From: Eledone cirrhosa
Lineage: Eukaryota
Length of the DNA stretch: 64,000 nucleotides
Assembly: GCA_964016885.1 (NCBI GenBank)
Contig: OZ024747.1
Coordinates: forward strand, 5,084,001-5,148,000
Direction: 5' to 3'
The position numbers and the translations under genes were made by a program. Shown in pieces: positions 6,239 through 29,292 of the stretch; position 1 is the stretch's first letter; every line of letters starts with the position of its first letter. Below the pieces are notes generated by a model that saw nothing but the letters and a program-made list of their open reading frames with translations, did not search any database and had not been told where the DNA came from.

Positions 6239-6287
6239 GCTTCTACAGGACTAGTACTGTTTCATTCAGATGAAATCTTCAGGAAGC
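6239..6287 (-). ncRNA. Type I hammerhead ribozyme candidate (family A)
   Basis: gcttc-CTGAAGA-tTTC(atct)GAAt-GAAACAG(tactagtc)CTGTA-gaagc; GUA cleavage triplet. Confidence 0.75.
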
Positions 6288-8988
6288 AGTATTGAGTACC
6301 TTACTTACTGTGGTTATCCCCGAGTCAACCCGGGACCTACGTATATATATATATATATATATATATATATATATATATATATATATGTTTATCCCGGTTC
6401 AATCGGGGGGTAACCACATTAAATAAGGTACTCAAACCACAGAAGAGTATAAATATTTAATATAGAAATGGCTTCTACAGGACTAGAACTGTTTCATTCG
6501 GGAGAACCCATCATATATATATATATATATATACATATGCAGTATAAATATATACATATATATATATATATATATATATATATATATATATATATATATA
6601 TATATATATATATATATATGTATATATATATATATATATAGAGAGAGAGAGATATAGATATATATATTCATATATATATATATATATGTGTGTGTTTGTG
6701 CGTGAACGTACGTATGTATATATATATATATTGTGTGTGTGAGTGTAAGTATGTGTGTGTATAGAGAAAGAAGGAAGAAGAAAGCAAGGAAAAGGAAGAG
6801 AAAAAATGTGCAATGAGTTTAGTAAGTGCATTTGGTTGGTAATTTAAGACAAGTGAAGCCATTATACAATATTTCGTCCTAGCATATGTCCTCCATATAT
6901 CAAATATATACATTTTAGACGGCTCACTACTGCCATTTATGTTATATAGTCCACATACACATACACACATATATTGACATACATATACACATAGAGCGGT
7001 CACATGCATACATTCATGCAATCATACAAATATATACAGTATATGCATATAGAAACACCCACACACACCCACACACACACACACACACACACACAGCATA
7101 ATATATCTAAGACTAAGTTGTTCAATATGAACTTCTTATTTAAATATAATTCTTTCTACTTTTGGTACAAGGCCAGAAATTACTCCAGTGTATTACTGGT
7201 ACTGTATTACTGGTTCATATATATTGACATACATATATATAAAATAAACATATATATATATATATATATATATATATATATATATATATATACATATATA
7301 TATATATATTGTTGTAATAATATTGCCAGAATTAATAACAGAATACACTCACTGTTTGGTTGGTTTTCGTTTCTGTATCTTTTATATCAGTTAATTTAAT
7401 TTATTCGGTCCTCAATGTTACCATTGACTGACCAACGGTTAAAAATACAGATATAATATAGATAAAAACACATATATATATGTAAATACATAATCGGAGA
7501 AAGCTAATAGCGATACTCTCCGGCCAAATTTCAACTCACTTAACAAACATTAGGAAATACCTGAGTATATTCCTAATTAAACGTTCGGGGTGCTAACTAA
7601 TTGTATTGTGTGGAAAATTGGCTGTATCATTTCATATGAGATATATCAAATATATTATTTCCCAGACGGACGTCTCGTTTCACTATAAGATTTCTACAAG
7701 TTGGGTGAAATTATACCAATTTATGTAGAAGCTTGTATAAGATCAACAGATACTTATTCAAGTGGGCTCTCATAATTCTTCAGTGGGTGCCCAATAATAT
7801 TAATATTGATAACCAAATCAACATCAATATTTAGCGATAATCACCATCAGTGCTTGAGGGAGCTGCTAGGTTGTTAGTCCAGCAGTTCTAAAGAAAATCT
7901 CACATTGTCTCAATAAAGGAGGAAGGGGATTACCGCCAAAAAACAATACATGCGCAGGTCAATGAATTCTGAAAAGAATTCAAGCCACGTGCTAGAACTA
8001 TATATATATATGTATGTATATATATATATATATATATATATATATATATATATATATATATATATATATACATATATACACACATATATATACATATATA
8101 CATATATATATATATATACATATATATATATATATATATACATATACATATATACATGCATACATAGACACACACTATATATTTCCACATACACACACAC
8201 ATATTCCCATACAGACTGACAGAGAACCCCCACATACAAACACACACATACTCACATATAGACACCACATAAACACACACACACACACACAGATACACAC
8301 CTACTATGACACAGGAGCAATTGACTTTCAGCTGGCAGCTGCAAAGTAGCACGTCCATCTTTAAAACATTACCGCCACCTGGTGGTAAAGTTTATGTGTT
8401 TATATTAGAGAATATAATAACACAACTCTCATGTATATATATATGTATATATATGTATGTATGTGTATATGTATGTATGTATATGCATGCATGTATATAT
8501 GTATGTATACATGTATGTATATATGTATATATGTATGCATGTATATATGTATGCATGTATATATGTATGTATACATGTATGTATATATGTTTCTATGTGT
8601 GTGTGTGTGTGTGTGTGTGTGTGTGTGTAAATGTCCTCTTTAGATTTCTTCCAGTGAAGTGAGCCGTGTATAGAGTCAACTGCTGAGTAAGTAATATATA
8701 GACATCTGGACAGGTGTAGGTGAGAGGGGGAGGGGGAGGAGACGGGGAGAGGAGAGAGGGGGAGAGGAGAGGGGGAGAGGAAAGATGAGGAGGAGAGATG
8801 AGGTGGAGAGAGAGGAATGTAATGAGAAGAAGATGTATATATATGCATGTATATATATATATATATATATATATAATTACATGCATATATATATATATAT
8901 ATATATATATATATATATATATATATATATATATATATATATATATATATATATATATATATATATATATATATATATATATATATAT

Positions 8989-9203
8989 AAATAGCCGGCG
9001 AAACGGCTTGAGCTCTGCCGACGGGTTTAAACATTTCCCTATATATATATAGGCTCTATTTCTGGTCCAGAAATAGCCGTCGAAACGGCTTGAGCTCTGC
9101 CGTCGGGATCATACTTTTTCCTATTTCCCACTCTACTACCCTAGGTATTGAGTACTCTGGTGCGTTATGGTCTATCTGGTTCCTTACCACAATTCCTTCG
9201 TTA
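8989..9203 (+). mobile_element. Short (TA)n-flanked element (family C) with duplicated hammerhead 3' half and GTATTGAGTAC box
   Basis: GAAACGGC(ttgagctct)GCCGTC-ggg at 9082 and a GAC variant at 9000; homologous to about 1560-1680, 5795-5900, 53465-53610 and 60600-60650. Confidence 0.65.
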
Positions 9204-25822: not shown

Positions 25823-28800
25823 TTGACTGACTTGTCATTTCATCAGTCAGATGTACTTACTGAATAATTGTTCACCTGACTGCCCTCGTCTCATCCAATA
25901 GACCCAGTTTCCATTACATACGCTTCGATGGACCGGAGTCTCTCATTCTGTATTCACTTTCATATACTTTGCCCTGGGTCACTACTTCTGAGAAGTTCGA
26001 TACCTAGGAATGTTTTTTTGTTTCAGAAAAATATTGAAACCATAACTATATTTTGTACTTTTCTCTCTCTCTCTTCATCTCTCCCTTCCTCTCTCTCTCT
26101 CTCACTCTCTCTCTCTGTCTCTCTCTCTCTGTCTCTCTCTCTCTCTCTCTCTCTGTCTCTCTCTCTCTCTCTCTCTCTCTGTCTCTCTCTCTCTCTCTGT
26201 ATGATGAACACACATATGCCAGCACTGACACACACACACACACGCACTCACACGTGTTTGTATGCATGCGAGAGAGATAGAGAAAACGAAAATCAAAAGA
26301 CAAAGAGCGAGAGATACGTACACACACATATGTATACCCCCACCCTCACCCCATATATATATATATATATATATATATATATACTGTACATACATGTCTA
26401 ATGCTGTATATTGTAGTGGTGCAATACCCAGGTTTATAGTTGATATGGTTCAACGAAAGATAAGACAAACAGTCTTACGTGGGTTGTGCATGTATCTTGT
26501 CTGTGTATGTGTATGGCTGTATTGTGTGTGTGTGTGTGTGTGTGTGTGTGTGTGTGTGTGTGTGTGTGTGTGTGTGTGTGTGACAGAGAGGGAGAGCGAG
26601 AATGAATGAGTGACTACGTGTGTGTTTGGGTGCGTGAGCGTGTGTGTGAGTGTGTGTGTGTTTGTATGCGTACGTGAAACACAGAGAGAAAGATAGAGAG
26701 AGCTCGTGTGTTTGTGTGTGTGCGTATATGTTTGTGGGCGTGCGCGAATGGGTGTGTGAGCGTGTGTGTGTTTGTGTGTGTACGTGAAACAGAGAGAGAG
26801 AGAGAAAGAAAAACAGAGAGAGTGCGTGTGTGTTAGTGTGAGTGTGTGTGTGTGTGTGTGCGTGTATTTTTGTGTACGTATGTATGTGTCTGTTTGCGTG
26901 AAAGAAAGAGAGAGAGAAGAATAAAGAGTGCATGCGTGTTTGTGCTTGTGTGTTTGTGTGAGTCTGTGTGTCTGTGTGAGTGTGTCTATGTGTATGTGTG
27001 TGCGCGGGTGCAATTGTCTGTGTGCGCGGTTATGCAAATTAGCCGGTTAGAGAGAAAACAGCTGCTAAATTGTATATATATAAGATGAAAGAATGTAATA
27101 TACATATATACATATATACTTATATATACATACATACATGTATATATGCATATATACATGCATATATGCATATATACATAGATATATACATACACGCATA
27201 CATGATACACATATCACACACACAAACATATATGCACGCACACACATATACATGCATGCTTAGAAAATACATACATATATGCATTGCACACACTCATGCG
27301 CGCGCACCACCCATAAGCACGTATGGGCCGCTCCCCCACTCCCATATACACATGGAGAGAGATGTGAAGAAAGTACTCAATAGATTGCCAGGAATGTAAT
27401 TGCATATATTGTGATGGTGATTCGTTTCACGAGTTTTAGATCAATTAGCTGTGTGTCTATGTGTGTGTAAGGGTGTTTGGGTGTGTCTGTGTCTATGTAT
27501 GTGTGCGTGTGTGTGTGTGTGTAAGTGTATATACACATGTGTATGTGTGTGTGCTTGTCTGTGTCTATGTGCGTGCGTGAGTGTATGTATGTTTGTGTGT
27601 TTGCGTGTGTCTGTGTCTGTGTGAGCGTGTGTGCGTCTGTGTGTGTGTGTGTGTGTGTGTGTGTGTGTGTGTGTGTGTGTGTGTGTGTGTGTGTGTGTGT
27701 GTGCATGTATGTGTGTGGATCATGTGCTGGTCCTATGAGAGTGGGGTCCACCCGGTACTTTATTCCGGGGCCCAAGAGCTAAGAAGGCCCCACAGCAACC
27801 ATGCAACATACATTTTGAGAAACATCTTTGCCTGCTTTGGGCCCCAAACGGGTGTGTAGCTCCTTGTAAAATTTCTCTTTGAGGCCCTGATCATGTGGTT
27901 GTATATTTGAGGAGCGTGGCATTAACAGAATCTTGAGAGCGTCCGTAACCCACTGACTTCGACAGTATGTGATAAAGCTAGTACTTTGAATTACGGGCTT
28001 CCAAATAGTTTCTGTCTCCCCACTTTGACTGGCAAGATATTGGTCGACACTTGACAAAGATGCCACAATAAAAAGTCTTATCCCAAGTGCCGCGATCTCT
28101 GATTGAACTCGAAACCACGTGGCTACCAAGCAAATTTTTCAACCTCCCATTCATATCGTCTTTTATATAGATAAACAGTGAAACAGAAATATACATATAC
28201 ATACAATTAATTTTATATATATATACTCGCGCCCATTTCTCTTTATATATATATATATGTGTGTGTGTGTGCGTGTGTGCGTGTGTGCGTGTGTGTGTAT
28301 ATATTTCCTGATGATTTTTTTCGAATGAAACAGTTCTTAAATTTTGTATATACTCTACTAATGTATTGAGTACTTTACTTACTGTGGTTGCCTGCGATTA
28401 AACCCACGGTACACACACACACACACACACACACACACACACACACACACACACATACACACACATATATATATATATATATATATATATATATATATAC
28501 AGAGAGAGAGAGAGAAGAGAGAGGGTGTATATACACGAGTATATGCACATTAGATGAATATATCCACGCCTTAACGTAAACACATGTTCAGCGTATAGTC
28601 ATTGAACGACGAAGAAAAAAGAAAATTACACTGCCTCACAATAATCTGCCGCTCTCTACCATTTCCTCCTTCACAAACTCAAACTTTCTCTCATTCAATC
28701 TTACCCGACTATACATATGATACATATGACGGCACAATTATTTCACCTCTACTGGCCTCGCTCTTTTTAACATTACACCAAAACTCACTAAAACAGAAAC

Positions 28801-29131
28801 AGACCTCATCAAATTCAAAAAGTCTTTGGACAAATTCTTTCAAGAAATCCCGAATAAACTTCGTCCAGATATGTCCCCGTAAACATTAACTCTCTACTTT
28901 AATGGGCCATAGTGTCTAAATCCTGATTTGAAAGACTTCGCCAGGTGGCGCTATAAAGTTAGACAATACTGGGCCAATACTGGCCGAAAGTTATCAAAGT
29001 TATCAAAGTTAAAGTTATATACGAGGGTGGGCGGAAGATTTGATAGGCTGACTATGAAAGAGTGATGCTAGAGCTCTGAAATCTCTCTCTCTCTCTCTCT
29101 ATATATATATATATATATATATATATATATA

Positions 29132-29292
29132 TAAGGTACTCAATACATGGCAGAGTATAAATATTTAATATAGAAAGGCTTCTACAGGACTAGAACTGTT
29201 TCATTCGGTGGAAATCGTCAGGTCAGGAAGCCTTGATGATTTCTACCGAATGAAACTGTTCTAGTCCTGTAGAAGCCTTTCTATATTAAATA
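29132..29292. mobile_element. Family A element with an inverted hammerhead pair
   Basis: Arms about 29163-29220 and 29233-29292; cores CTGACGA (minus, with a 5-nt duplication) and TTGATGA (plus); box at 29136-29146. Confidence 0.75.

What the first reader, a model, noticed from the sequence alone, without database searches (positions are those of the whole stretch)
6239..29292. Family A hammerhead: covarying stem I, free loop II and an invariant U-U at the base of stem II
Seen: stem I is gcttc/gaagc at 6239, agattc/gaatct at 12242 and tttc/gaag at 17866. Stem II TTC/GAA is constant while its 4-nt loop varies (atct, taaa, tccc, cacc, tacc). Loop III contains the palindrome CTAG. This pattern indicates selection on RNA structure. 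All copies have U opposite U at 10.1-11.1, where canonical hammerheads usually have G-C, so this may be an undescribed variant. Truncated copies lie near 3450, 6465 and 28305.
Basis: partly seen in the sequence, partly recalled or inferred. Interest (0 to 1): 0.75.

Follow-up and report, generated by a model that had tools for sequence, protein, structure and literature searches.

The report
Hydra-type Penelope retrotransposon hammerhead ribozyme
These are real copies of a hammerhead (self-cutting RNA) motif at the ends of a very abundant, young Penelope-like jumping gene; the U-U mismatch is already in print for such ribozymes, and the only new lead is that many copies begin exactly at the motif's first base, which likely marks a transcription start.

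Summary
Observation confirmed; novelty refuted. The motif is a type I hammerhead with 26,475 exact matches in the genome. It flanks an intact 758-aa RT + GIY-YIG frame with Hydra-clade Penelope-like motifs. U10.1-U11.1 is fixed (11 of 20,776 lack both) but published: Perreault 2011, axolotl HHR_Amex2 (about 60,000 copies, cleaves in vitro), and 14 of 25 Hydra-clade families in Craig 2021 File S2. Differences from those: an 8-nt loop III and a 1.7-3.2 kb microsatellite in the 3' UTR. New lead: 33 of 100 tail-anchored copies begin within 3-8 nt of the core, at stem I's 5' edge, about 30 nt behind TATAAATA, and 82 of 100 span the scissile bond. So a pLTR promoter likely makes short, mostly uncleaved ribozyme RNAs that are copied like a SINE. 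Cleavage and transcription are untested. The scan had already found Hydra-type hammerheads on other DNA, including this genome.

The parts
6239..6287 (-). Complete type I hammerhead, subfamily with loop II ATCT; core C3 at 6282; predicted cut between 6244 and 6243; 5' boundary 5 nt upstream of the core; short 3' end running into (TA)n near 6224
6289..6342 (+). Inverted partner of the 6239 copy: distal tail only, ending in (TA)n
6386..6504 (-). Fragment: long tail plus 3' half of the hammerhead, 5' core box lost
3440..3487 (-). Fragment: 3' half of the hammerhead with short end
12226..12446 (-). 3' end of the young subfamily: about 155 nt of 3' UTR (the TATA-like box removed by a 23-nt deletion), hammerhead at 12242-12292 (core C3 12286, predicted cut 12248/12247), short end into (TA)n
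17780..17914 (-). Hammerhead (core C3 17908, loop II TCCC, bulged U in stem I) plus long tail ending in microsatellite
17915..17971 (+). Inverted partner with degenerate core (G8 changed, stem II broken), short end
19019..19113 (+). Tail-only copy between (TA)n tracts
28304..28417 (+). Old copy: 5' core and GAAA box present, 3' halves of stems III and I deleted, diverged tail
29134..29233 (-). Hammerhead (core C3 29221, loop II CACC) with 5-nt duplication before the core, part of tail
29228..29292 (+). Inverted degenerate partner (loop II TACC), short end

Best explanation
The motif is the type I hammerhead in the terminal repeat (pLTR) of a young, high-copy Hydra-clade Penelope-like retrotransposon family, and the window's copies are 5'-truncated, often inverted-paired insertions of its 3' end into (TA)n; the ribozyme is predicted to be a weak, probably dimer-assisted cutter that selection has kept in the source elements. 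Shown: the repeat, its link to an intact RT/GIY-YIG frame, the stem I covariation, the fixed U-U, two 3' ends (about 15-28 and 86-94 nt past the cut site), and a sharp 5' boundary at the edge of stem I. Inferred: a TATA box 35-36 nt upstream of the core starts transcription at the first base of stem I; full-length transcripts then carry hammerhead plus tail at both ends; solo 3' ends that keep the TATA box make RNAs of about 130 nt that the element's enzyme copies in trans, giving the mass of minimal copies; most templates were uncleaved or re-ligated; cleavage, when it happens, would trim or circularise the element RNA; the CUAG palindrome would let two stem III arms pair in a dimer.
For: Hammerhead 39 nt before an open 758-aa frame in 15 of 20 fetched long-frame loci and 2.4-4.0 kb after the stop in 18 of 20. 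Motifs RWR 18/20, SDKT 19/20, YRDD 20/20, CxCX5C 19/20, YIG 20/20, CxxC 19/20, CMH 19/20 match the Hydra definition (PMC8557442 section 11). Sixteen 758-aa frames are 97.5-99.7% identical in DNA. Stem I pair 4: C-G 2,689, A-U 9,392, A.G 57, C.U 35. 5' ends: 33 of 100 at -8..-3, hazard 14.5% per nt against 0.57% downstream and 0.13% upstream; the flank at those ends is an inverted arm or microsatellite (by eye). TATAAATA and a C-A or C-G step at -7/-6 in the long copies of the main subfamilies. Stem III arm homoduplex -12.8 to -15.2 kcal/mol against -1.4 for the hairpin. 82 of 100 copies span the scissile bond. Published PLE hammerheads cleave poorly (PMC4209133).
Against: No cleavage assay and no RNA data. 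Pfam gives only a sub-threshold GIY-YIG hit (15.3 bits, cut-off 22.6) and no RT hit for the 758-aa frame; clade assignment rests on motifs and by-eye comparison, not a tree. The predicted monomer hammerhead fold holds only 0.1-3% of the ensemble. The list showing TATA conservation was filtered for that word, one subfamily has it 5-6 nt closer and one reads CGTAAATA. Drosophila Penelope uses a TATA-less internal promoter (PMC2377424). Only 3 of 6 published Hydra consensuses show a TATA-like word 26-34 nt before stem I, by eye, in AT-rich DNA. The 100 copies come from the first 39 Mb of one contig and two pairs share identical junctions.
Confidence: 0.85

Rival explanations
1. Same element, but the 5' boundary at stem I is made by RNA processing or by the copying step (a nuclease cut at the base of stem I, use of the CAG at -8..-6 as a 3' splice site, or a template switch helped by stem I self-complementarity), not by a transcription start.
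For: A pyrimidine-rich run ending in CAG precedes stem I in the main subfamilies; in D. virilis Penelope an intron end maps to the 5' end of helix I (PMC4209133). Junctions often use short microhomology with the inverted arm.
Against: No common upstream exon or leader is joined to the boundary in the 36 copies at -12..-1. A structure-caused RT stop would be expected at the 3' side of stem I (+45), where there is no peak. Spacing from TATAAATA is 29-30 nt in the two main subfamilies.
Confidence: 0.3
2. The hammerhead is now catalytically dead or nearly so and is kept as a structural or sequence signal for the RT/endonuclease (template recognition, strand transfer).
For: 82 of 100 copies span the cut site and there is no clear 5'-end peak at it (8 seen in +35..+42, 3.9 expected, P 0.046 uncorrected). 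Stem II is 3 AU-rich pairs on a U-U; the fold is not favoured.
Against: All core nucleotides are kept between subfamilies whose 3' UTRs no longer align. A U-U hammerhead from axolotl cleaves (22% in 1 h as monomer, more as dimer), and U-U is reported as the best-tolerated mismatch there.
Confidence: 0.2
3. It is an independent non-autonomous retrozyme or satellite (tandem circRNA unit) rather than the end of a coding element.
For: Most copies are about 130 nt and non-coding; retrozymes with U-U at helix II exist.
Against: Copies are not tandem 170-400 nt units; the same hammerhead sits on both sides of an intact RT/EN frame and its tail runs straight into that frame.
Confidence: 0.05

Closest known systems
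Hydra clade of C-terminal EN+ Penelope-like elements and their hammerheads (Craig et al. 2021, PMC8557442, section 11 and File S2; includes Hydra-1_Obim)
   Same: Single RT + C-terminal GIY-YIG frame, DKT, CxCX5C linker, CxxC and CxH round the conserved E and N, (TA)n targets, inverted 5'-truncated partners, a tail at one end only, sense type I hammerhead near the 3' end, U at 10.1 and 11.1 (14 of 25 families).
   Different: RWR for RWK; element about 5-6 kb because of a 1.7-3.2 kb microsatellite 3' UTR (described ones are mostly under 3 kb); loop III 8 nt with internal CUAG (1-3 nt in the 25 listed families); AU-rich 3-bp stem II; the hammerhead sequence differs from Hydra-1_Obim's; tail about 65 nt rather than 30-40.
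Axolotl retrozyme hammerhead HHR_Amex2 (Cervera and de la Pena 2020, PMC7229834, section 15)
   Same: Type I hammerhead, U-U mismatch at the base of helix II, tens of thousands of copies.
   Different: Non-coding 350-bp tandem unit with circRNA shown; 2-bp helix III; activity measured. None of this is shown here.
Minimal PLE hammerheads (Cervera and de la Pena 2014, PMC4209133)
   Same: In pLTRs, mostly solo copies, pairs on opposite strands, palindromic loop III, proposed dimers.
   Different: Those have a long helix II, a bulge after A9, conserved G10.1-C11.1 and little or no helix III; this one has a 4-bp stem III and a short stem II.
Natural core variants of Perreault et al. 2011 (PMC3088659, section 8)
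   Same: [quoted passage not shown]

Membership tests
Type I hammerhead ribozyme | Core C3-U4-G5-A6-N7-G8-A9, G12-A13-A14, A15.1-U16.1, H17 | tested here: met
   complete at 6239, 12242, 17866, 29179
Type I hammerhead ribozyme | Three stems with open stem I, supported by covariation | tested here: met
   95% of cells paired, 2 of 6 stem I pairs change on both sides; stems II and III never vary (uninformative, partly selected by my patterns)
Type I hammerhead ribozyme | Paired 10.1-11.1 (usually G-C) | tested here: not met
   U-U; 11 of 20,776 matches have neither U. A published tolerated variant
Type I hammerhead ribozyme | Match to an Rfam hammerhead model | tested here: not met
Type I hammerhead ribozyme | Self-cleavage 3' of H17 | not testable with these tools
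   indirect footprint in copy ends inconclusive
Type I hammerhead ribozyme | Loop II - stem I tertiary contact | not tested
   loop II differs freely between subfamilies, so no sequence-specific contact is apparent
Penelope-like element, Hydra clade | Single frame with RT and C-terminal GIY-YIG | tested here: met
   (YRDD and YIG in 20 of 20); Pfam GIY-YIG only below cut-off, no Pfam RT hit; 1,172 relatives of similar length at about 40% identity
Penelope-like element, Hydra clade | RWK and DKT motifs | tested here: met
   RWR (conservative change) 18 of 20, SDKT 19 of 20
Penelope-like element, Hydra clade | CxCX5C linker; CxxC and CxH in the endonuclease | tested here: met
   19 of 20 each
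Penelope-like element, Hydra clade | pLTR with hammerhead, inverted truncated partner, (TA)n target | tested here: met
Penelope-like element, Hydra clade | Generally under 3 kb | tested here: not met
   3' UTR 2.4-4.0 kb in 18 of 20; a tendency in the paper, not a diagnostic
Penelope-like element, Hydra clade | RT groups with Hydra in a phylogeny | not tested
   reference proteins seen only as supplement text; compared by eye
Non-LTR retrozyme | Non-coding tandem units of 170-400 nt | tested here: not met
Non-LTR retrozyme | Expressed circRNA | not testable with these tools
   no RNA holder listed

The most novel reading that the evidence does not exclude
This Hydra-clade element has an LTR-like layout: a TATA promoter in the upstream pLTR starts transcription on the first base of the hammerhead, so hammerhead plus tail act as an R-like repeat at both RNA ends, and every solo 3' end with its TATA box emits a 130-nt ribozyme RNA that is retrotransposed as a one-generation SINE; the long copies also spread 2-3 kb of compound microsatellite each time they move.
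Probability: 0.45. Interest if true: 0.55.

Novelty: new member of a known kind. Interest (0 to 1): 0.3.

Why it matters
The U-U claim adds little. What is useful: a young PLE family with many intact frames and more than 26,000 ribozyme copies that Rfam misses, and copy ends sharp enough to test how PLE RNA starts, whether the hammerhead cuts in vivo and how pLTRs and inverted pairs form, all open questions for PLEs. The microsatellite 3' UTR offers a direct route by which these elements enrich the genome in (TA/TG)n.

Tried and rejected
Rfam scans gave no hammerhead hit. The first coding link (L031, an RT/EN frame upstream of a 6239-type hammerhead) was rejected: 20 fetched long-frame relatives of that frame carry no family-A hammerhead, show a different one, and L031 shares only 239 nt with other 6239-type copies. 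The frame in L238 was likewise set aside as probably another family (44% to the 758-aa frame); a whole frame for the 6239 subfamily was not found, only endonuclease ends at 66-76% in three loci. A peak of 5' ends at the cut site, as a footprint of cleavage in vivo, was looked for and not established. Sequencing runs: no RNA holder listed. Contig depth in run X2 is about 1.1-1.2 million over the hammerhead and tail against about 1,000-2,000 over the start of the frame, but it is no copy number and the run's kind is unknown; its loose ends at 1949 partly reflect subfamily mismatch, so I did not use them. The A2 branch returned 0 rows through an offset error; one search replaced it. Lunse et al. 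2017 on PLE hammerhead variants is not held; it may list further U-U variants. Searches for a TATA or start site at PLE hammerheads gave 2 listed papers, not read for this point beyond the listing and earlier passages of PMC8557442, and 0. A sequence look-up of earlier findings gave nothing.
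Full report
Observation. A pattern scan of the window finds the motif on the minus strand with core C3 at 6282, 12286, 17908 and 29221, degenerate plus-strand partners beside the last two and at 28308, and half copies near 3460 and 6475 (sequence). Two details differ: tttc/gaag at 17866 is a register shift from one extra U, not a compensatory change, and a 5-nt duplication breaks stem I at 29179. The exact pattern has 26,475 matches in the 3.0 Gb genome and the reversed control none. Rfam has no hit (150 of 359 rows shown; all 7 rows), and the hammerhead is not the minimum-energy fold of any of 7 window copies.

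What it belongs to. Copies end in (TA)n and often sit head to head. Walking upstream from long copies led across a microsatellite to a GIY-YIG frame. Its 150 best genomic matches are 97-100% identical. I fetched 20 of these 150, chosen for long open frames. The hammerhead lies 39 nt before the frame in 15 of 20 and 2.4-4.0 kb after the stop in 18 of 20; the protein has RWR (18/20), SDKT (19/20), YRDD (20/20), CxCX5C (19/20), YIG (20/20), CxxC (19/20) and CMH (19/20). These are the features that define the Hydra clade of Penelope-like elements (PMC8557442, section 11 read). Sixteen 758-aa frames are 97.5-99.7% identical in DNA, with 70 synonymous and 76 non-synonymous variant codons; the 3' UTR holds a 1,702-3,207 nt compound microsatellite with shared landmark words in 18 of 20. 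Pfam sees only a weak GIY-YIG. The host is likely an octopod: inference from the best named protein hit of a sister family (Argonauta hians) and the genome's size and repeats. A first link, L031, proved to be another family's frame and was dropped.

Covariation. For the fourth pair of stem I the genome holds C-G 2,689, A-U 9,392, A.G 57 and C.U 35 copies. On 15 aligned rows (11 chosen to cover loop II types, 4 from the window) 95% of cells pair and 2 of 6 stem I pairs change on both sides; stems II and III never vary. The number of pairs with double change does not exceed shuffles (256 of 500), so this is about two events, amplified. Better evidence of selection: the 6239 and 12242 subfamilies share only a 180-bp block at 83% around the hammerhead while the rest of the 3' UTR does not align and their endonuclease ends are 66-76% identical, yet core and stems II-III are identical. 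With 10.1 and 11.1 left free there are 20,776 matches; 11 have neither U, as expected from decay.

Is U-U new? No. PMC3088659 (section 8 read) reports a natural stem II starting with U10.1-U11.1 and calls it the best-tolerated mismatch. PMC7229834 (section 15 read) describes about 60,000 axolotl hammerheads with U-U at the base of helix II, cleaving 22% in an hour as monomer and better as dimer. File S2 of PMC8557442 (table read) lists 25 Hydra-clade families; by my count 14 have U after A9 and U before G12, though the passages I read call them canonical. PMC4209133 (parts 1-2 of 4 read) gives G-C as the rule for minimal PLE hammerheads and reports low activity. Lunse et al. 2017 was not available. 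What differs here is the 8-nt loop III (1-3 nt in those 25) and an AU-rich 3-bp stem II. The stem III arm is predicted to pair far better with a second copy (-12.8 to -15.2 kcal/mol) than with itself (-1.4), in line with the published dimer model.

Ends of the copies. To avoid selecting on the ribozyme I took the first 100 of 15,048 matches to the distal tail and mapped 5' boundaries against five reference copies: 17 run more than 40 nt upstream of the core, 2 end at -40..-13, 36 at -12..-1, 27 at 0..36, 6 at 37..42 and 12 later. The end rate is 14.5% per nt at -8..-3 against 0.57% downstream and 0.13% upstream (copies treated as independent; microhomology blurs ends by a few nt). By eye the flank at these ends is an inverted arm or microsatellite, so they are true ends. 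Long copies carry TATAAATA 35-36 nt before the core in the two main subfamilies and a C-purine step at -7/-6 (one search was filtered for the word). Of the 15 full-length copies with a 5' hammerhead, 13 have 28 nt or more of upstream repeat. I infer a start site at stem I's first base. Against: Drosophila Penelope has a TATA-less internal promoter (PMC2377424, passages read); 3 of 6 published Hydra consensuses show a TATA-like word at a similar distance, by eye; a splice acceptor or template switch is a rival. 82 of 100 copies span the scissile bond, and ends near it are 8 against 3.9 expected (P 0.046, uncorrected, one an artefact of an inverted arm, two identical), so cleavage in vivo is neither shown nor excluded. 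Of 98 3' ends of the young subfamily, 30 fall at 13-28 nt and 55 at 86-94 nt past the cut site and 13 run into the frame; each end lies a few nt before a small ACUC-containing hairpin, and a further tail hairpin covaries (4 of 13 predicted pairs). The hairpin lead came from earlier notes.

Mechanism. Shown: repeat, coding link, anatomy, end positions. From established PLE biology: copying by target-primed reverse transcription into (TA)n, pLTRs, inverted partners. Inferred: promoter position, short RNAs copied in trans, weak dimer-assisted cleavage that trims or circularises RNA. No RNA run was listed.

Verdict. A real, selected hammerhead of a known kind in a new Hydra-clade family; the U-U is precedented. 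Searches for a prior account of the start-site model found none; PMC13282606 (passages read) has no mention of hammerheads. Interest 0.3.

Noticed in passing
L066-L085 (own genome; e.g. 5' of the frame in L066, and L031 near 3580): A second young Hydra-type family with many intact 830-832 aa frames (38% identical to the one studied) carries a hammerhead-like motif with C at position 4 (CCGAAGA), A opposite G at the base of a 7-bp stem II and a loopless palindromic stem III. A stranger variant than the one in the finding.
   Followed up: partly
L086-L105, 3' UTR: A 1.7-3.2 kb compound (TA/TG)n tract with shared landmark words is part of the element and travels with it.
   Followed up: partly
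tail, e.g. window 17780-17869 minus: Two 3' ends about 65 nt apart, each just before a small hairpin; the first hairpin's GTATTGAG word also appears behind the hammerhead of coral Hydra-2_Amil; a distal hairpin covaries.
   Followed up: partly
window 3179-3209 (+), 10174-10214 (-), 11631-11654 (+), 29581-29608 (-), 31691-31711 (+), 38390-38413 (-), 47765-47786 (-): Hammerhead-like cores of other families, several with longer stem II.
   Followed up: no
window 21553-24189 (+): Open frame of a non-LTR retrotransposon fragment: Pfam RVT_1 (E 1.5e-25) and zf-RVT below cut-off.
   Followed up: partly
window 36831-37753: 4.5 head-to-tail copies of a 203-bp unit at 99% identity; a similar sequence interrupts the 3' UTR in L017.
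   Followed up: no
window 9412-9584 and 3725-3856: Long near-perfect inverted repeats that give the spurious microRNA matches; possibly fold-back insertions.
   Followed up: no
window 12906-13469 (-) and 46094-46468 (-): Short frames resembling the C-terminal end of RTE-type LINEs (resemblance recalled, from no call; frames).
   Followed up: no
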